Positions 23,675 through 35,053 of a stretch of DNA of 64,000 nucleotides are shown here, piece after piece. The stretch lies in contig JAJFGV010000008.1 of NCBI GenBank assembly GCA_021775965.1, forward strand, positions 4,662 to 68,661. Direction: 5' to 3'. Source of the stretch: Alphaproteobacteria bacterium. Lineage in GTDB: Bacteria > Pseudomonadota > Alphaproteobacteria > Micavibrionales > Micavibrionaceae. The stretch's first letter is position 1. Every line of letters begins with the position of its first letter. The position numbers and the translations under genes were made by a program. The notes under the pieces are model-generated. The model did no database searches and was not told where the DNA came from. It was given only the letters and a program-made list of their open reading frames with translations.

Positions 23675-23695
23675 AATGGAGCGAGTGAAGAGATT
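23675..23695. repeat. distal att repeat (copy of the tRNA-Gly 3' end)
   Basis: AATGGAGCGAGTGAAGAGATT is identical to 34977-34997. Confidence 0.9.
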
Positions 23696-23808
23696 GGGCT
23701 TCGCCCCTTGTCCTTACTCTACACTTTGTTCCGAGAAGGCCGGATTTCCTATACTTTCACAGATACTTACGTCTTAACGCATAATACCTATAACCTCTCA
23801 AATTATAG

Positions 23809-23833
23809 CATTGCAGTAGCACTCGCAGTAGCA
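23809..23833. repeat. 25-bp arm repeat, left copy (tandem GCAGTAGCA motif)
   Basis: CATTGCAGTAGCACTCGCAGTAGCA is identical to 34877-34901. Internally it is a tandem 12-bp motif, GCAGTAGCACTC then GCAGTAGCA. Confidence 0.85.
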
Positions 23834-24077
23834 CTAATTGAAAAAATATGGAGTCACCTGCCGGATTCGAGCTCAGGGTATGAAGCCATATTCAGAAGGG
23901 GGGGTAGGAAGAATTGGGGGTGGTCGGTTTGTTAAGATAAGGCCTGCTGGAATTTTTAGTGTATTTTTCAGAATAATTATTTTCTTAAAAGCTTGCGCCG
24001 GCAATGCTATTTTAGGTAAGACTCACTTATAAGTTGAAAAACGTAACTAGCCTAGCTTTTTCGGACGGAGAAAAATT

Positions 24078-25943
24078 ATGAGTTTCGATATAAACAAATT
24101 CAAAGCAGAAAAACATTTAAGCAATAGGTATGCAAAAAGAATTCAGGCCTTAAAAGATAAAGGTAGGCAAACAGACTGCATAGAAAAGACCGTTAATGAA
24201 TCTGTGGAAAACATTCAGGGTAGCGGGCGCTCATTCATAGTTTATGGGGAACCCCAAAGCGGTAAGACAGAAATGATGATTGCCCTTACAGCCAAGCTGC
24301 TGGATGAGGGGCACAAAATAATTATTCATCTGCTGAATGACAATGTTTCTCTTTTGGAACAAAACTTATTAAGATTTCAACAGTCGGGACTTTCTCCTGC
24401 TCCATACAATTTTCTAGAAATCATGGATCCTGTTATTGAGATTGGGGATAAGGAATGGGTGATCTTCTGTAAGAAAAATGGGAGCAACCTTAGAAAACTT
24501 ATAGAAAAAGTAGGTCATATAGGTGGCAAGATCATTATTGATGATGAGGCGGATTATGCTTCCCCTAATGCAAAAATAAATAAGGAGGGGGAAAAAACAC
24601 CGATAAACGAACTGATTGAAACTCTTTTAAAAAATGGAGGCACATACGTTGGTGTCACAGCAACGCCGGCAAGGCTTAATCTAAATAGTACGTTTGAAAA
24701 TGACCATACGAAATGGGTGGATTTTCTCCCTCATAGTAAATACACAGGTCAAGACACATTTTTTCCCATCACACATAGCTGTGAATTTGGTATGACGTTT
24801 GTTCCAGATGGTGCTGGTGACGATCCTAAATGGTGCCGTAATGCCTTGTTTGGTTTTATGGTGAATGTCGCATATTTAAATTTGCATCCTGAGATACATG
24901 GAGAAGAAAACTATAGCTTTCTTGTTCATACAAGCGGGAAGAAGGCAGACCATAAGATTGATTATCAAACCATACAAAAAGTGTTTGGTACTTTGTCGGA
25001 CACAAGCGACAAGAATTTTGCTAAGTACGTTGAAAAAGTGTGGGCATTAGCTAATAAGCGTTATCCCGGCGAGGCGGATAAGATTACAGATTATATTTTA
25101 GAGAACATAGGACGCCGGAATACTGTTGTTATGAACAGCGCTAAAGAGTTTGAAAAAAATCACAAAAGTGCCACTTCTCCTTCAACGATCTTTACTATTG
25201 TCATCGGTGGTAATATCGTTTCCAGAGGTATGACCTTTGATAATCTTCTGTCAATGTATTTTACTCGTGACGTTAAGCATAAAATTCAGCAGGATACTTA
25301 TATCCAGCGAGCGCGTATGTTTGGTACCCGCGATTACCTCCCTTATTTCGAGCTTACAATTCCCGAGAACCTCTATTTAGACTGGCATAGGTGTTTTATC
25401 TTTCATAGGCTTGCCCTTGCGGCCGTCCGTGCTGGAAACGCACCCGTATGGCTGGAAAGTAAGAGAATTTCTGCTGCAGCATCTGCGAGTGTGGACAAAT
25501 TGAATGTTTCTATAGATGCAGGTGAGATGAGCTACGGCATTTTTGATTACAATGGCGTTAAGACGGATGCAGAAGGCATAGTGAGTTCGGAAGACAGTAA
25601 TATTTCTAAACTAGAAAAGCTGCAGAGTTTGTTGGGAGAGGAGAATTTCCCCGCATACGTGCTCTCCTATATTCGAGAATTTAGTCCGCAGGGCGATAAT
25701 TCAATTACGCTTCATTCCTCACATTCCATTGCGAATATGCACGATGCTGATCAGCAAAACATCAGTCGTAAAAGAGGTTTTATGGGTGGTGCTAATTTCT
25801 CAAAGAACTCACCGGTAGCACATCATTTAAGGATTTCTCACAATGCGATAGGGCAGGCTCGTTTGTTCTATAAGTATAACGGCAGCATAAAGTTCCTGAA
25901 AAATTTCAAGACCATCAAAGGGCCGAAAGAAAAAGCTGCGTGA
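24078..25943 (+). CDS. Z1-domain NTPase (SF2-helicase-like), putative restriction/defence component
   Basis: GEPQSGKT Walker A, IIIDDEADYASP DEAD-like box, GVTATPAR motif III. Then IVSRGMTFDNLLSMYFTR...DTYIQRARMFGTRDY, which matches the remembered Z1 pattern (SRGLTLEGL..SYF.R....DTL.QMGRWFGYR). Confidence 0.7.
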   Translation: MSFDINKFKAEKHLSNRYAKRIQALKDKGRQTDCIEKTVNESVENIQGSGRSFIVYGEPQSGKTEMMIALTAKLLDEGHKIIIHLLNDNVSLLEQNLLRFQQSGLSPAPYNFLEIMDPVIEIGDKEWVIFCKKNGSNLRKLIEKVGHIGGKIIIDDEADYASPNAKINKEGEKTPINELIETLLKNGGTYVGVTATPARLNLNSTFENDHTKWVDFLPHSKYTGQDTFFPITHSCEFGMTFVPDGAGDDPKWCRNALFGFMVNVAYLNLHPEIHGEENYSFLVHTSGKKADHKIDYQTIQKVFGTLSDTSDKNFAKYVEKVWALANKRYPGEADKITDYILENIGRRNTVVMNSAKEFEKNHKSATSPSTIFTIVIGGNIVSRGMTFDNLLSMYFTRDVKHKIQQDTYIQRARMFGTRDYLPYFELTIPENLYLDWHRCFIFHRLALAAVRAGNAPVWLESKRISAAASASVDKLNVSIDAGEMSYGIFDYNGVKTDAEGIVSSEDSNISKLEKLQSLLGEENFPAYVLSYIREFSPQGDNSITLHSSHSIANMHDADQQNISRKRGFMGGANFSKNSPVAHHLRISHNAIGQARLFYKYNGSIKFLKNFKTIKGPKEKAA

Positions 25944-33517: not shown

Positions 33518-34879
33518 TTACGTTCCTTCTGAATTAGATAGCCTTATGGGGAATGATAACTTGTTTATATTTTCCTGTAAAATCTCAAGGCTGTAGCCGT
33601 ATCCATACGCATCGTGAACCTCTTTTGCAGATTGGTGGCCAGTGAGAGCCATGACGATAGACCTTTCTACCCTTGCATTGCGCATCCCGTCTATAAATGT
33701 GTGACGCAGACTATGAAAGCACAGGCCTTCCCGTTTAATCTCTATGGCCTTTAGGAGCCGCCAGAAACGTTTTGTGAAGGTGCTGGAGTAGTTTCGAGCA
33801 CTCTTACCCATCGGAATGTCAGGAAACAGGCGTTTGTGCTTCTGATCTTTGATTTCAACCACGTAATCAAGAAAGCCATGTTCTATAATTGCTTTGTGAA
33901 TAGGAATCTTGCGCCGACTGGATGCTGTCTTTAATCCCTTGTCATCACCATCGTCATTCACATCGAAAATATAGATACCGTCTTCAACCCTTATGTCTTT
34001 GACGTACAGTTGGCAGATTTCATTTAATCGCATACCAGAATACAACCCAATCAAAGGAACCCAGTACATAGAAGGATATTTCATACCCTTACCAAGACCA
34101 CTTTGAAACAGCGTAAGTAATTCTTCCGGTTTGAATGGATGCCGCCTTGATGCCGTAACCTTCTTTCCCCGTATGATGAGGTGTGAGAAGGGATTTGAGC
34201 CATGATAGTACTCGGCCCGTATCGCCCAATTGAACAACGCAATGATATAGGCCAGACGGTTGTTGATGGTCTTGGGGTGCTGCGGCTTGCCTTTGAGTTT
34301 GTCCAGATCAACTCCCTCAAAACTTTGGATGTTGTGCAGCTTCTTCGCATTGGATGGAATCTTCATGAGCAGGGACTTGAAATGTTTGGCTTCGTCTGTG
34401 CCTATGTCCCTAAAAGCCAGATCACCCATAAGCTCTATGAACAGTGTGTAGGTGTTCTCTTTGTGAAAGCGTGTGCCGTGGGTATCGGTGGGGCAGTCCT
34501 TTAGATATTCCTCTACGATTTGAGAGAACAACAACCCTCCCCTTTGTGCCCCCTGTCTTTTGATATGGTTGTATTTAGCTGGTGGTTCGTATCCATAGGC
34601 ATCTTTCACCTTGTCGATGGCAGAAACAAAATCATGGACAATCATATCCGGTGACTGGTCAGGCGATAAATCACATAAGCTTTGCCTTAGCTGGCTAATG
34701 AGCTTTGTGAACTCATAATCGAGCTGTGCGACTTGCATCCTTGCCACGCTTAAATCCTGTGTATCCAGACCAAGCCATATCTCTCGAAAGGGCAGAAGAT
34801 CACTCAGGTTTCGCGGTGTAAATTTACGAAAATAATAATACCCGTTACGGATATACAAATGACGTTCAACAGCCTTCAT
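33518..34879 (-). CDS. int: tyrosine-type site-specific integrase
   Basis: Start taken at MKAVERHLYIRNGYYYFRKF, a typical island-integrase N-terminus. C-terminal catalytic HSLRHTF and HQSAKEVHDAYGY region. Adjacent to the tRNA. Confidence 0.9.
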   Translation of the reverse strand: MKAVERHLYIRNGYYYFRKFTPRNLSDLLPFREIWLGLDTQDLSVARMQVAQLDYEFTKLISQLRQSLCDLSPDQSPDMIVHDFVSAIDKVKDAYGYEPPAKYNHIKRQGAQRGGLLFSQIVEEYLKDCPTDTHGTRFHKENTYTLFIELMGDLAFRDIGTDEAKHFKSLLMKIPSNAKKLHNIQSFEGVDLDKLKGKPQHPKTINNRLAYIIALFNWAIRAEYYHGSNPFSHLIIRGKKVTASRRHPFKPEELLTLFQSGLGKGMKYPSMYWVPLIGLYSGMRLNEICQLYVKDIRVEDGIYIFDVNDDGDDKGLKTASSRRKIPIHKAIIEHGFLDYVVEIKDQKHKRLFPDIPMGKSARNYSSTFTKRFWRLLKAIEIKREGLCFHSLRHTFIDGMRNARVERSIVMALTGHQSAKEVHDAYGYGYSLEILQENINKLSFPIRLSNSEGT

Positions 34880-34901
34880 TGCAGTAGCACTCGCAGTAGC
34901 A
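34877..34901. repeat. 25-bp arm repeat, right copy, overlapping the integrase start codon/5' leader
   Basis: Identical to 23809-23833. On the minus strand it ends in the proposed integrase ATG. Confidence 0.85.
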
Positions 34902-34976
34902 ATTAACAAAAAGGCTTATGTGTCAAAATCTATGAAAGGTAGGGTGGACCTGTTCCTCGGACGGAACGGTAGAGTG

Positions 34977-34997
34977 AATGGAGCGAGTGAAGAGATT
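34977..34997. repeat. proximal att repeat (3' end of tRNA-Gly)
   Basis: Identical to 23675-23695. Covers the tRNA T-arm 3' half, the acceptor 3' strand and CCA, plus 2 nt. Confidence 0.9.
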
Positions 34998-35053
34998 CGA
35001 ACTCTCGACATTTTCGTTGGCAACGAAATGCTCTACCCCTGAGCTACACTCGC
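34979..35053 (-). tRNA. tRNA-Gly (anticodon GCC), CCA encoded
   Basis: Manual fold of GCGAGTGTAGCTCAGGGGTAGAGCATTTCGTTGCCAACGAAAATGTCGAGAGTTCGAATCTCTTCACTCGCTCCA gives a 7-bp acceptor stem, D arm GCTC/GAGC, anticodon stem TTTCG/CGAAA with loop TTGCCAA, and a TTCGAAT T-loop. Confidence 0.9.

What the first reader, a model, noticed from the sequence alone, without database searches (positions are those of the whole stretch)
23675..35053. ~11.3 kb integrative island in the 3' end of tRNA-Gly(GCC), delimited to the base by a 21-bp direct repeat
AATGGAGCGAGTGAAGAGATT occurs at 23675-23695, 18 bp after the mrcA stop, and again at 34977-34997. The right copy is the last 19 nt of a well-folding tRNA-Gly(GCC) plus 2 nt. 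A tyrosine integrase reads away from the tRNA 3' end, which is the canonical tRNA-island layout. Everything between the repeats is visibly more AT-rich than the flanks and encodes only accessory functions: a Z1 NTPase, a methyltransferase, an AlpA-like HTH, a polymerase-like protein, lipoproteins, XRE, GIY-YIG and the integrase. No capsid, tail or conjugation genes are present. It therefore resembles a satellite or defence-island type element with its own replicase rather than a prophage or ICE.
Basis: partly seen in the sequence, partly recalled or inferred. Interest (0 to 1): 0.7.

Follow-up and report, generated by a model that had tools for sequence, protein, structure and literature searches.

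The report
tRNA-Gly island with divergent PolA polymerase
This is a real 11.3 kb mobile island, inserted into the end of a glycine tRNA gene of a Micavibrio-like bacterium; it carries a restriction-modification-type defence module and belongs to a widespread, undescribed group of small integrative elements built around a poorly understood, stripped-down family A polymerase (divPolA2).

Summary
The 21-mer occurs exactly twice, at 23675-23695 and 34977-34997. The right copy is the last 19 nt of an intact tRNA-Gly(GCC) plus 2 nt. The closest available relative (MAG Micavibrio sp. DHS20C02) has the empty site: mrcA, one copy of the 21-mer, then the tRNA, with 80% identical flanks. Island GC is 41.2%, against 48.5% in the flanks.

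The element has two parts. The left part is cargo: a Z1 ATPase, a 173-aa protein and an N6/N4 methyltransferase, which together look like a restriction-modification module. The right part is a conserved backbone: a DUF6538 tyrosine integrase, GIY-YIG, XRE, a lipoprotein, a Sel1 lipoprotein and a 493-aa polymerase. I found the same backbone in other 6.9-14 kb tRNA-flanked elements from metagenomes.

The polymerase has a confident family A fold. It is a member of divPolA2 (hhalign probability 99.6% to the published phage representative). That family was previously described only in phages and has no known function. Here the family has about 12,000 cluster representatives and is often linked to integrases.

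A replicase or primase role is inferred, not shown. There are no packaging or conjugation genes. A conserved motif lies downstream of the polymerase gene, and a perfect 22-nt inverted copy of it inside int remains unexplained.

The parts
23675..23695 (.). attL: left copy of the 21-bp direct repeat (a duplicated tRNA 3' end fragment)
   Evidence: Exact repeat. The synteny break against the empty site in L001 falls at this repeat.
23809..23833 (+). Left arm-type repeat: CATTGCAGTAGCACTCGCAGTAGCA, containing GCAGTAGCA twice. Putative integrase arm-binding sites (P' arm).
   Evidence: A 25-nt exact direct repeat of 34877-34901. GCAGTAGCA occurs only at these 4 places in 64 kb, against 0.22 expected. 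L092 has the same architecture with a different motif.
24078..25943 (+). Cargo: Z1-domain P-loop ATPase/helicase-like protein, 621 aa
   Evidence: Pfam Z1 2.9e-21. PADLOC Helicase_II 2.6e-41. A plasmid homologue sits in a methylase / PLD nuclease / Z1 operon.
25940..26461 (+). Cargo: 173-aa protein overlapping the Z1 stop by 4 nt; candidate nuclease or specificity partner (unproven)
   Evidence: Only hit is phrog_28860, function unknown. No Pfam, PADLOC or PDB hit.
26388..27575 (-). Cargo: Type II-like N6/N4 DNA methyltransferase, 395 aa (SPPY motif)
   Evidence: PADLOC MTase_II 3.9e-30. PHROG DNA methyltransferase 2.3e-39. Pfam N6_N4_Mtase.
27576..28611 (.). 1-kb non-coding region. It holds a C-rich tract (about 27998-28048) and a 40-nt imperfect palindrome with divergent promoter-like sites (28452-28553) upstream of the HTH gene. 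It is a candidate regulatory or origin region.
   Evidence: No ORF of at least 60 aa. Palindrome I1. Promoter-like hexamers at 28516-28545(+) and 28489-28460(-). No iterons or Rfam hit. Similar C-rich tracts occur in L091 and L092.
28612..28845 (+). 77-aa HTH_17 (AlpA/Xis-like) protein; probable excisionase or regulator
   Evidence: Pfam HTH_17 8.6e-5, below the curated cut-off. phrog_66 excisionase 1.3e-3. A 41% identical homologue lies directly upstream of the polymerase gene in L083.
28852..29037 (-). Conserved non-coding region downstream of the polymerase gene. It includes the 22-mer ATACCCTTACCAAGACCACTTT (29013-29034, read on the - strand).
   Evidence: A 23-nt block is identical in L081/L082 although the polymerase genes are only 76% identical. 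The motif CTTACCAAGACCACTT recurs downstream of the polymerase gene in L092 (1 mismatch) and in L091 and L093 (3 mismatches), always on the polymerase sense strand.
29088..30569 (-). 493-aa divergent family A polymerase (divPolA2 family); hallmark backbone gene
   Evidence: AF2 pLDDT 90.8. Foldseek PDB hits are PolA DNA polymerases at probability 1.0. Foldseek BFVD hits are 430-aa phage proteins, E 6e-21. hhalign to the published divPolA2 AUR84708 gives probability 99.6, E 3e-24. Invariant residues R253, D281, K319, H419-D420-S421.
30654..31088 (-). Sel1-repeat protein. Likely a lipoprotein starting at the internal Met (MRNLTLVFLFSLCLSAC).
   Evidence: Pfam Sel1 1.6e-10. Homologues lie next to the polymerase gene in L081, L083 and L093. 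The lipobox was read from the sequence.
31161..32003 (-). 280-aa predicted lipoprotein (MKKLVLVSFLVLTGC); conserved backbone gene of unknown function
   Evidence: No Pfam or PDB hit. 48% identical to an L091 protein, 43% to one in L093 and 24% to one in L092, in the same position.
32044..32247 (+). XRE-family HTH regulator, divergent from the lipoprotein-Sel1-polymerase operon
   Evidence: NCBIfam HTH families. 87% identical in L092, and also found in L081, L083 and L093.
32604..32990 (-). 128-aa GIY-YIG nuclease-domain protein (backbone)
   Evidence: Pfam GIY-YIG 1.7e-13. A 65% identical homologue lies next to int in L092.
32998..33516 (-). 172-aa predicted membrane protein, function unknown
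   Evidence: ORF translation. No family hit.
33518..34879 (-). Tyrosine integrase (DUF6538 N-terminal domain plus Phage_integrase). The likely start is the ATG at 34879; the ORF extends to a TTG at 34909.
   Evidence: Pfam Phage_integrase 1.2e-14 and DUF6538 4.1e-9. phrog_1 integrase 5e-38. 43%, 35% and 37% identical to the integrases of L092, L091 and L088.
34083..34104 (-). Perfect inverted copy of the polymerase-downstream 22-mer, inside int (codons QSGLGKGM). It sits at a roughly 14-aa deletion relative to homologous integrases.
34877..34901 (+). Right arm-type repeat (GCAGTAGCA twice), abutting the int start codon
34977..34997 (.). attR: right copy of the 21-bp repeat (tRNA 3' end plus 2 nt)
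34979..35053 (-). Intact tRNA-Gly(GCC), the integration target
   Evidence: ARAGORN. Rfam tRNA 70.1 bits.

Best explanation
An 11,302-bp integrative element was inserted by its own tyrosine integrase into the 3' end of tRNA-Gly(GCC), next to mrcA, in a Micavibrio-like alphaproteobacterium. Recombination took place within a 21-bp core that runs from the T-loop to CCA+2. The element supplies this sequence, so the tRNA stays intact at attR and a 21-bp fragment is left at attL. Two pairs of GCAGTAGCA repeats lie 76-138 bp inside either end. They are probably arm-type sites for the DUF6538 N-terminal domain of the integrase, and the right pair sits directly before the int start codon, so the integrase may regulate its own expression.

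The element has two modules. The first is a conserved backbone: int, GIY-YIG, XRE facing a lipoprotein-Sel1-divPolA2 operon, and an AlpA/Xis-like HTH. The second is swappable cargo, here a Z1 ATPase, a 173-aa protein and an N6/N4 methyltransferase, which together look like a restriction-modification defence system.

Inferred life cycle (not shown): the XRE repressor keeps the operon silent. On induction, Int together with the small HTH protein excises a circle. The divPolA2 polymerase then primes and/or copies the circle, perhaps starting at the conserved CTTACCAAGACCACTT site just downstream of its gene. Transfer must depend on something outside the element.
For: SHOWN
- Exact 21-bp repeats and an intact tRNA.
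- An empty site with a single 21-mer in the closest relative, with the two flank alignments overlapping by exactly the repeat.
- None of 80 related mrcA loci carries any island gene.
- GC is 0.412 in the island against 0.485 in the flanks.
- The integrase lies next to the tRNA and reads inward.
- Four GCAGTAGCA copies occur only at the two arms. L092 has the same layout with the motif GTTACAG.
- The backbone is shared with independent elements that are bounded by tRNA-3'-end repeats. L092 has a 21-nt repeat from T-loop to CCA. L091 is a 6.9 kb contig with identical 30-nt tRNA-like ends.
- Related polymerase genes sit in integrase islands in Pelagibacter (between two tRNA-Val copies), in S. meliloti, and in 11 of 21 metagenome contigs of at least 5 kb.
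- The polymerase has a confident PolA fold with catalytic residues conserved, and it belongs to divPolA2.
- The cargo matches Type II methyltransferase and helicase-domain models. A Z1 homologue lies in a methylase/nuclease/Z1 operon on a plasmid.

INFERRED
- The replicative role. L091 is a complete 6.9 kb element in which int and the polymerase are the only large enzymes, and no other replication gene was recognised in the gene-call table.
- There is precedent from CcPol-MP of SCCmec, a PolA-type primase acting at an origin downstream of its operon (PMC7581432), from TV-Pol (PMC2579912) and from piPolB in pipolins (PMC11551731).
- A cis motif downstream of the polymerase gene is conserved across polymerase genes that are only 44-76% identical.
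Against: - I had no read-level or PCR evidence for excision or a circular form of this element. The empty site is in a different species (about 80% nt identity in the flanks), so it shows insertion, not current mobility.
- The integrase has a roughly 14-aa deletion, exactly where the 22-mer sits, relative to its homologues. It may be impaired.
- No helicase, SSB or initiator is present in the backbone.
- The polymerase family is almost absent from plasmids: 3 of 72,556 records, all large replicons. In phages it is an accessory gene beside a normal PolB. The authors who named it suggested a repair DNA polymerase or an RNA polymerase, not a replicase (PMC11348598).
- No iterons or recognisable origin were found.
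- The position five residues after the motif A aspartate is His here, but Glu in DNA polymerases and in the phage representative. Sugar specificity is therefore unknown.
- The nuclease of the proposed restriction-modification module is not identified.
Confidence: 0.8

Rival explanations
1. The polymerase is not a replicase. It is a single-subunit RNA polymerase, or another kind of nucleic-acid synthase, that transcribes element genes from the conserved 22-bp site or acts in repair or anti-defence. The island would then be a non-replicating integrative element.
For: - The divPolA2 authors note structural similarity to mitochondrial and N4 RNA polymerases and propose a possible RNA polymerase role (PMC11348598).
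- Two family members give marginal Pfam RNA_pol hits at E 0.045.
- The GGRFYGG hairpin resembles the DxxGR motif of T7-like RNA polymerases (my reading).
- The position equivalent to the steric-gate Glu is His in this subfamily.
- Two perfect 22-nt copies in one element resemble phage-type promoters.
- The family is near-absent from plasmids.
Against: - The top structural matches in PDB are DNA polymerases.
- In three relatives the motif faces a convergent gene, so it would drive antisense transcription.
- Only this island has a second copy.
- The precedents for island-borne minimal PolA enzymes are primases (CcPol-MP).
Confidence: 0.2
2. The island is a phage satellite (PICI-like) or a mobilisable element (IME). 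It depends on a helper phage or a conjugative element for transfer, and the polymerase amplifies it after induction.
For: - Size and layout (inward-facing integrase, XRE switch, small replication-type module) resemble PICIs and tycheposons.
- The S. meliloti relative carries MobC and a relaxase beside int and the polymerase.
- The polymerase family also occurs in phage genomes.
Against: No terS, capsid, portal, capsid-size redirection gene, relaxase, T4CP or T4SS family was hit in this island. The only 'terminase small subunit' hit (1.3e-3) is the generic HTH of the 77-aa protein and ties with the excisionase hit.
Confidence: 0.25
3. The island is a fixed, decaying remnant. It integrated once but can no longer excise, and its polymerase and repeats are relics.
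For: - The integrase has an internal deletion or replacement of about 14 aa that coincides with a foreign 22-mer.
- A 1-kb stretch has no genes.
- No within-species polymorphism data are available. The look-up of the exact mrcA product found no other record.
Against: - All backbone ORFs are intact. The att repeats are 21/21 identical and the arm repeats 25/25 identical.
- The integrase keeps R (GMR), HxxR and the C-terminal Tyr region in alignment with its homologues.
- The polymerase keeps every family-invariant residue.
Confidence: 0.2
4. There was no insertion. The region is ancestral and was precisely deleted in relatives, or the contig is an assembly chimera.
For: The source is apparently a metagenome-assembled genome, and the empty site comes from another species.
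Against: - The boundaries coincide exactly with a duplicated tRNA 3' end next to an integrase.
- The island has 7 points lower GC.
- 0 of 80 relatives has any island gene at this locus.
- The same backbone is found at other tRNAs elsewhere.
- An independent Logan assembly reproduces 7.1 kb of the island interior.
Confidence: 0.02

Closest known systems
divPolA2 (divergent phage PolA; Virol J 2024, PMC11348598)
   Same: The polymerase is a member. hhalign of the 56-sequence profile against the published representative AUR84708 gives probability 99.6%, E 3e-24 over 354 columns, including the N-terminal globular domain. Foldseek gives TM 0.45-0.74 to barbavirus and Aeromonas phage proteins. There is no exonuclease domain, and motifs A, B and C are conserved.
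   Different: divPolA2 was described only in large phages, as an accessory gene in variable neighbourhoods beside a PolB replicase. Here it is the hallmark gene of small tRNA-integrating bacterial islands, under an XRE switch and beside a tyrosine integrase. In this subfamily motif A reads DYSxxH, where the phage protein has D....E.
TV-Pol elements (Iyer, Abhiman & Aravind 2008, PMC2579912)
   Same: Both are minimal PolA/T7-RNAP-like cores of 400-600 aa with a beta-hairpin Arg, two catalytic Asp and RxxxK in the fingers. Both have an extra N-terminal domain, lack a nuclease, are common in alphaproteobacteria, and are linked to lambda-type integrases and restriction-modification-rich islands. 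TV-Pols were predicted to be primase-polymerases.
   Different: I could not show sequence-level membership. The profile does not detect the candidate TV-Pol of phage Ma-LMM01. No D5-like helicase is linked here.
CcPol-MP/Cch2 of SCCmec and PolA-SSB primases (PMC7581432, PMC10061031)
   Same: An integrative island encodes a truncated family A polymerase. The origin or priming site lies just downstream of the operon. The SCCmec origin iteron TACCACTTAAT and the motif here share ACCACTT, which is a lead only.
   Different: CcPol derives from Pol I/CHEAP and needs an OB-fold partner (MP) and the helicase Cch2. SCCmec uses serine recombinases and a non-tRNA site, and occurs in Bacillota. Here the neighbouring genes encode secreted lipoproteins, no helicase is present, and the recombinase is a tyrosine integrase.
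Pipolins (piPolB islands; PMC11551731)
   Same: These are integrative elements flanked by direct repeats at tRNA genes. They are bimodular, with a polymerase/integrase backbone and exchangeable defence cargo.
   Different: The polymerase there is a primer-independent family B enzyme, not PolA. The backbone genes are unrelated.
Tycheposons (Hackl et al., bioRxiv 10.1101/2020.12.28.424599)
   Same: These are 10-20 kb marine elements at tRNA genes. They have an inward-facing tyrosine recombinase at one end, a small replication module and cargo. A relative of this polymerase sits in a Pelagibacter island between duplicated tRNA-Val genes.
   Different: Tycheposons are defined by a lineage-specific integrase and hallmark gene profiles that I could not test. 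Their replication genes are described as primases, helicases and polymerases without naming divPolA2.

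Membership tests
tRNA-targeting tyrosine-integrase genomic island | Direct repeats, one of which is the 3' end of an intact tRNA gene | tested here: met
   21/21 identical repeats. The right copy is tRNA nt 57-75 plus 2 nt.
tRNA-targeting tyrosine-integrase genomic island | Tyrosine recombinase gene adjacent to the tRNA-proximal end | tested here: met
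   Phage_integrase 1.2e-14. The gene starts 98 nt from attR and reads inward.
tRNA-targeting tyrosine-integrase genomic island | Unoccupied site in related genomes | tested here: met
   L001 has mrcA, a single 21-mer and the tRNA-Gly. The flank alignments overlap by exactly the repeat.
tRNA-targeting tyrosine-integrase genomic island | Excision to a circular form or a repaired attB in the same strain | not testable with these tools
   No read data were available. The exact-protein look-ups gave no alternative junction.
divPolA2 | Homology to the published representative (AUR84708, Vibrio phage 1.063.O) | tested here: met
   hhalign probability 99.6, E 3.2e-24, 354 columns. BLASTP 1e-5.
divPolA2 | PolA palm and fingers with conserved motifs A, B and C, no 3'-5' exonuclease domain, and a unique N-terminal globular domain | tested here: met
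   Invariant D281, R315/K319 and H419-D420. Foldseek PolA hits cover only about 280 columns. No Pfam domain anywhere in the protein.
divPolA2 | Polymerase activity and substrate (DNA or RNA) | not testable with these tools
   No biochemistry exists for any member in the literature I searched.
TV-Pol | Beta-hairpin Arg, two catalytic Asp, fingers Asp plus RxxxK, thumb-like N-terminal unit, no nuclease | tested here: met
   R253 lies in strand 251-255. D281, D305, R315xxxK319 and D420 are present. Family definition from PMC2579912.
TV-Pol | Detectable sequence homology to a named TV-Pol | tested here: inconclusive
   Against the Ma-LMM01 ORF next to the transposases, hhalign gave probability 0.13 and hmmsearch gave no hit. 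The motifs look alike by eye. It is also uncertain that this ORF is the TV-Pol of the paper.
PolA-SSB primase (CcPol-MP type) | Adjacent OB-fold SSB partner and a linked helicase | tested here: not met
   The upstream genes encode Sel1 and lipobox proteins. No backbone helicase is found in this island or in the complete 6.9 kb relative L091. The fold of the small neighbouring proteins was not modelled.
Pipolin | Primer-independent family B polymerase (piPolB) | tested here: not met
   The polymerase has a family A fold. No PolB family was hit.
Phage satellite (PICI/PICMI-like) | Packaging or capsid-hijacking genes (terS, capsid, cpm, ppi) or other helper-exploitation genes | tested here: not met
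   No such PHROG or Pfam hit. The single weak terS-model hit is a generic HTH.
ICE / IME | Relaxase, coupling protein, T4SS or oriT | tested here: not met
   None found in Pfam or PHROGs. A distant relative in S. meliloti does carry MobC and a relaxase. oriT is not testable with these tools.
Tycheposon | Lineage-specific tycheposon integrase and hallmark gene profiles | not tested
   The profiles were not available. Only the architecture matches.
Restriction-modification system with Z1/helicase-domain subunit | Methyltransferase plus Z1 NTPase plus a nuclease | tested here: inconclusive
   The methyltransferase and Z1 protein are found. No nuclease domain was recognised in the 173-aa partner. 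A plasmid homologue operon has a PLD nuclease instead.

The most novel reading that the evidence does not exclude
Islands carrying divPolA2 are an unrecognised, abundant class of small (7-14 kb) self-priming integrative elements. They are common in marine and aquatic Alphaproteobacteria, including SAR11 and Micavibrio-like predators, and are functional analogues of pipolins and SCCmec that use a thumb-less PolA. The enzyme would start synthesis at a specific cis site (CTTACCAAGACCACTT) just downstream of its own gene. The element needs no helicase or initiator of its own, and it shuttles defence cargo between tRNA sites. In this island a second, inverted copy of the site inside int couples replication or transcription to integrase expression.
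Probability: 0.3. Interest if true: 0.7.

Novelty: new variant of a known kind. Interest (0 to 1): 0.45.

Why it matters
The island itself is a textbook tRNA insertion, and it is now verified with an empty site. The added value is its context. It ties divPolA2, a polymerase family named in 2024 from phages with no known role, to a conserved integrative-element backbone. The family is large: about 12,000 representatives at 50% identity clustering, of which 6,188 have E<=1e-30. It has no Pfam or NCBIfam model, and it frequently sits next to tyrosine integrases at tRNA genes. That gives a concrete, testable hypothesis for the enzyme, namely element-specific priming or replication at a defined 16-22 nt site. 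It also adds a third polymerase type (after piPolB and CcPol) to the set of defence-carrying islands that bring their own polymerase. Finally, it flags mobile defence cargo in an understudied predatory lineage.

Tried and rejected
- The exact-protein look-up of mrcA, meant to find same-species contigs with or without the island, found nothing on record.
- The look-up of the exact polymerase returned only a 7.1 kb internal fragment with no junctions.
- A PDB sequence search with the polymerase profile gave 0 hits. Only fold comparison worked.
- Pfam, NCBIfam and PADLOC gave nothing for the polymerase. Scanning all 56 family members gave only two marginal RNA_pol hits.
- Rfam found only the tRNA in the island, and nothing useful in L091 or L092.
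- A search for iterons and tandem repeats in the 1-kb non-coding region found nothing convincing.
- An RNA fold of the polymerase-downstream region is no better than shuffled sequence, z = +1.19. I therefore dropped the structured-sRNA idea.
- The TV-Pol membership test against the phage Ma-LMM01 ORF was inconclusive. The paper's supplement is not held as usable text.
- The plasmid-replicase idea was rejected as a general role, with only 3 weak hits in 72,556 plasmids.
- blastn of the cargo against plasmids gave no match.
- PDB sequence searches for Z1, the 173-aa protein and the 280-aa lipoprotein gave nothing.
- The metagenome scan returned mostly 24-32% identical relatives on short contigs. 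It did not add close relatives for testing covariation of the 22-mer.

Full report
OBSERVATION

The 21-mer AATGGAGCGAGTGAAGAGATT occurs exactly twice in the window, at 23675-23695 and 34977-34997. No further copy appears with up to two mismatches, and none appears in 100 shuffles. The only tRNA in the window is tRNA-Gly(GCC) at 34979-35053 on the minus strand (Rfam 70 bits). The right repeat is therefore the last 19 nt of the tRNA, including the encoded CCA, plus 2 nt. The left repeat starts 18 bases after the end of an 821-aa PBP1A ORF (Transgly, PCB_OB and Transpeptidase domains). GC is 0.412 between the repeats, against 0.485 and 0.486 in about 11 kb on either side.

EMPTY SITE

A scan of one genome per GTDB species with the PBP1A protein shows that the host is a Micavibrio-like alphaproteobacterium. 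The best match is the MAG Micavibrio sp. DHS20C02 at 86% aa identity (L001). In L001 the mrcA stop is followed after 22 nt by a single copy of the same 21-mer, which continues into an intact tRNA-Gly(GCC).

blastn aligns window 17410-23695 to L001 6210-12509, and window 34977-38984 to L001 12489-16526. The two alignments overlap on L001 by exactly the 21-mer, and everything between them in the window (11,302 bp) is absent from L001. Gene order on both sides is the same. No island protein has a homologue in any of the 80 related mrcA loci (tblastn 1e-5). It shows an insertion. Because the comparison is between species, it does not show that the element is still mobile.

GENE CONTENT

Left part (cargo):
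- A 621-aa Z1-domain ATPase (Pfam Z1 2.9e-21; PADLOC 'Type II helicase domain protein' 2.6e-41).
- An overlapping 173-aa ORF, whose only hit is an unknown-function PHROG.
- A convergent 395-aa N6/N4 DNA methyltransferase (PADLOC MTase_II 3.9e-30).

A Z1 homologue on a Psychrobacter plasmid lies in a cytosine-methylase / PLD-nuclease / Z1 operon. The block is therefore best read as a restriction-modification-type defence module whose nuclease is not yet recognised.

Next comes about 1 kb with no gene (27576-28611). It contains a C-rich tract and a 40-nt imperfect palindrome carrying divergent promoter-like hexamers, just upstream of a 77-aa HTH_17 (AlpA/Xis-like) gene.

Right part, all on the minus strand except XRE:
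- A 493-aa protein with no Pfam, NCBIfam or PADLOC hit.
- A Sel1-repeat protein and a 280-aa protein, both with lipoprotein signal peptides (read).
- A divergent 67-aa XRE regulator.
- A 128-aa GIY-YIG protein.
- A 172-aa membrane protein.
- A tyrosine integrase with a DUF6538 N-terminal domain.

No capsid, tail, terminase, relaxase or T4SS family was hit.

THE POLYMERASE

The 493-aa protein has 58 word-index homologues, all unannotated. A profile of 56 of them finds 12,080 representatives of 50%-identity clusters at E<=1e-3, and 6,188 at E<=1e-30. The family is therefore large and uncurated; its only library hit is phrog_4756, function unknown.

Invariant residues are R241, G252, R253, R267, E279, D281, Y307, K319 and H419-D420-S421, with D305, R315 and N327 nearly invariant. 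This is the family A pattern: a beta-hairpin Arg, the motif A Asp, RxxxK in motif B, and HD in motif C.

AlphaFold2 gives mean pLDDT 90.8. Foldseek against the PDB returns only family A DNA polymerases (apicoplast Pol, Bst and Taq large fragments, Klenow, T7 DNA polymerase) at probability 0.9-1.0 over about 280 columns. Against viral models it returns roughly 430-aa phage proteins at E 6e-21 and TM 0.63-0.74. These include a Rheinheimera barbavirus 'DNA polymerase'.

Barbaviruses are where divPolA2 was described. That family is a diverged PolA with an active-looking palm, no exonuclease, no recognisable thumb and a novel N-terminal domain. Its authors proposed a repair DNA polymerase or an RNA polymerase (PMC11348598). 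I fetched the published representative (AUR84708, L176:25469-26761) and compared it with the profile. hhalign gave probability 99.6%, E 3.2e-24 over 354 columns, from the N-terminal domain through motif C. The island protein is therefore a divPolA2 family member. No other paper in the library mentions the family.

The protein also fits the verbal definition of TV-Pol (PMC2579912). However, a sequence test against a candidate TV-Pol of phage Ma-LMM01 was inconclusive.

A FAMILY OF ELEMENTS

Neighbourhoods of polymerase homologues show a recurring backbone.
- L092 (44% polymerase identity) has a tRNA-like 3' end, then a DUF6538 integrase (43% identical), GIY-YIG (65%), XRE (87%), a 174-aa protein, the polymerase, then different cargo (a DndB-like protein and a Dam methylase). 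It ends with a second copy of a 21-nt repeat, CAAATCCTACTCCCGCAACCA, which runs from T-loop to CCA.
- L091 (51%) is a 6,931-bp contig whose first and last 30 nt are identical and read as a tRNA T-arm, acceptor strand, CCA and TT. It carries int, XRE, a homologue of the 280-aa lipoprotein (48%), three small genes and the polymerase, and nothing else. A 30-nt self-overlap is what a circular contig gives in a k=31 assembly (my knowledge of Logan), but att repeats could also produce it. Either way it delimits a complete 6.9 kb element.
- L081/L082 (76%) have XRE, a small protein, Sel1 and the polymerase, with a different integrase type.
- L083 has int, XRE, Sel1 and an HTH_17 homologue overlapping the polymerase gene.
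- In Pelagibacter HIMB1746 the polymerase and an integrase bracket a 10 kb island between two tRNA-Val(TAC) genes.
- In S. meliloti the polymerase lies beside a DUF6538 integrase, Vsr, Dcm methylases and MobC/relaxase.

Among 80 metagenomic relatives, mostly marine, a tyrosine integrase is detectable in 11 of 21 contigs of at least 5 kb. This is a lower bound. By contrast, the family is nearly absent from plasmids (3 of 72,556), and in phages it appears as 'hypothetical protein' in 91-137 kb genomes.

ATT ARCHITECTURE

Besides the core, a 25-nt exact direct repeat (CATTGCAGTAGCACTCGCAGTAGCA) lies at 23809-23833 and 34877-34901. The four GCAGTAGCA units in these two repeats are the only ones in 64 kb. 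The right pair ends at the CAT that is the int start codon on the other strand.

L092 has the same design with a different word. GTTACAG occurs twice immediately before its int start, and twice about 100 nt inside the far end. This is the arrangement expected for arm-type sites of a heterobivalent integrase, with possible autoregulation. That reading is an inference.

AN UNEXPLAINED FEATURE

A perfect 22-nt inverted repeat links 29013-29034, which is 54-75 nt downstream of the polymerase stop, with 34083-34104 inside int. The flanks of the two copies are unrelated.

The polymerase-side copy is the ancestral one. The same 23 nt are identical downstream of the 76%-identical polymerase gene in L081/L082, whose integrase has no copy. 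The core CTTACCAAGACCACTT recurs downstream of the polymerase gene, on the polymerase sense strand, in L092 (1 mismatch, 55 nt after the stop) and in L091 and L093 (3 mismatches).

In int, the 22-mer encodes QSGLGKGM. It sits exactly where this integrase is about 14 residues shorter than its homologues.

Possible readings are: a priming or origin site with a second inverted copy; antisense pairing between the polymerase 3'UTR and int mRNA; or a repair scar. The region has no significant RNA fold. The origin iteron of SCCmec at which CcPol-MP primes, TACCACTTAAT (PMC7581432), shares ACCACTT with this motif. I treat that as a lead only.

MECHANISM AND CONFIDENCE

Integration by the element's own integrase into tRNA-Gly is shown as far as sequence can show it. 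The modular structure, a conserved backbone plus swappable defence cargo, is shown by comparison with related elements.

Excision, XRE-controlled induction, the excisionase role of the 77-aa protein, and above all a replicative or priming role for the polymerase are inferred. The inference rests on three things: the minimal gene set of L091; the analogy with CcPol-MP, TV-Pol and piPolB elements; and the conserved cis site.

The main rival is that divPolA2 is an RNA polymerase or has another role. I put that at about 0.2-0.3. How the element transfers is unknown.

VERDICT

The right half is a backbone rather than accessory genes, and 'replicase' is a hypothesis. As a tRNA island it is ordinary. 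As the first bacterial-island context for divPolA2, and as a representative of an apparently undescribed element family, it is moderately interesting.

Noticed in passing
window 29013-29034 (+) and 34083-34104 (-): A perfect 22-nt inverted repeat, AAAGTGGTCTTGGTAAGGGTAT. One copy is just downstream of the polymerase gene. The other is inside the integrase ORF, at a roughly 14-aa deletion relative to homologous integrases. The flanks are unrelated.
   Followed up: partly
window 28852-29037; L081 11523-11686; L092 4694-4709; L093 2316-2331; L091 6229-6244: A conserved non-coding motif, CTTAC[CT]AAGACCACTT, lies downstream of the polymerase gene on its sense strand in five independent elements whose polymerase genes are 44-76% identical. 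It shares ACCACTT with the SCCmec origin iteron that CcPol-MP primes on.
   Followed up: partly
window 27998-28048; L091 ~6655-6690; L092 ~8370-8420: C-rich tracts (for example TTTCCCCCTCCCCC) occur in the long non-coding stretch of three related elements. Their role is unknown; an origin is one possibility.
   Followed up: no
L091 1-30 and 6902-6931: A 6,931-bp Logan contig has identical 30-nt ends that read as a tRNA T-arm, acceptor strand and CCA. This is consistent with a circular (excised) 6.9 kb element, or with an element bounded by att repeats.
   Followed up: partly
L086 1536-1611 and 11780-11855 (Pelagibacter sp. HIMB1746): Two full tRNA-Val(TAC) genes bracket a 10 kb island that has an integrase at one end and a divPolA2 homologue at the other. 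It lies between lon and the nuo operon.
   Followed up: no
window 38985-40181: A roughly 1.2 kb segment is absent from the relative L001. It has low GC (about 0.41) and holds one 378-aa ORF (39049-40185) with no Pfam hit, between leuA and the next conserved gene. This may be another small insertion.
   Followed up: partly
window 14368-17409: This segment does not align to L001, which has about 4.5 kb of different sequence here. In the window it is one 1017-aa ORF with an SLT lytic transglycosylase domain.
   Followed up: partly
L007 12524-12892; L014 12543-12932: In some related genomes a tmRNA gene, not tRNA-Gly, follows mrcA directly. In others tRNA-Gly lies 0.2-4.4 kb away (L003, L004, L015, L023, L028). 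The mrcA-downstream region is therefore variable across the clade.
   Followed up: no
L176 (Vibrio phage 1.063.O) 11674-12621; L086 6737-7222; L091 3233-3880: T5orf172 or GIY-YIG-type proteins recur in genomes and elements that carry divPolA2 (GIY-YIG in the window and in L092). A nuclease-polymerase partnership, in which a nick provides the primer, is conceivable but untested.
   Followed up: no
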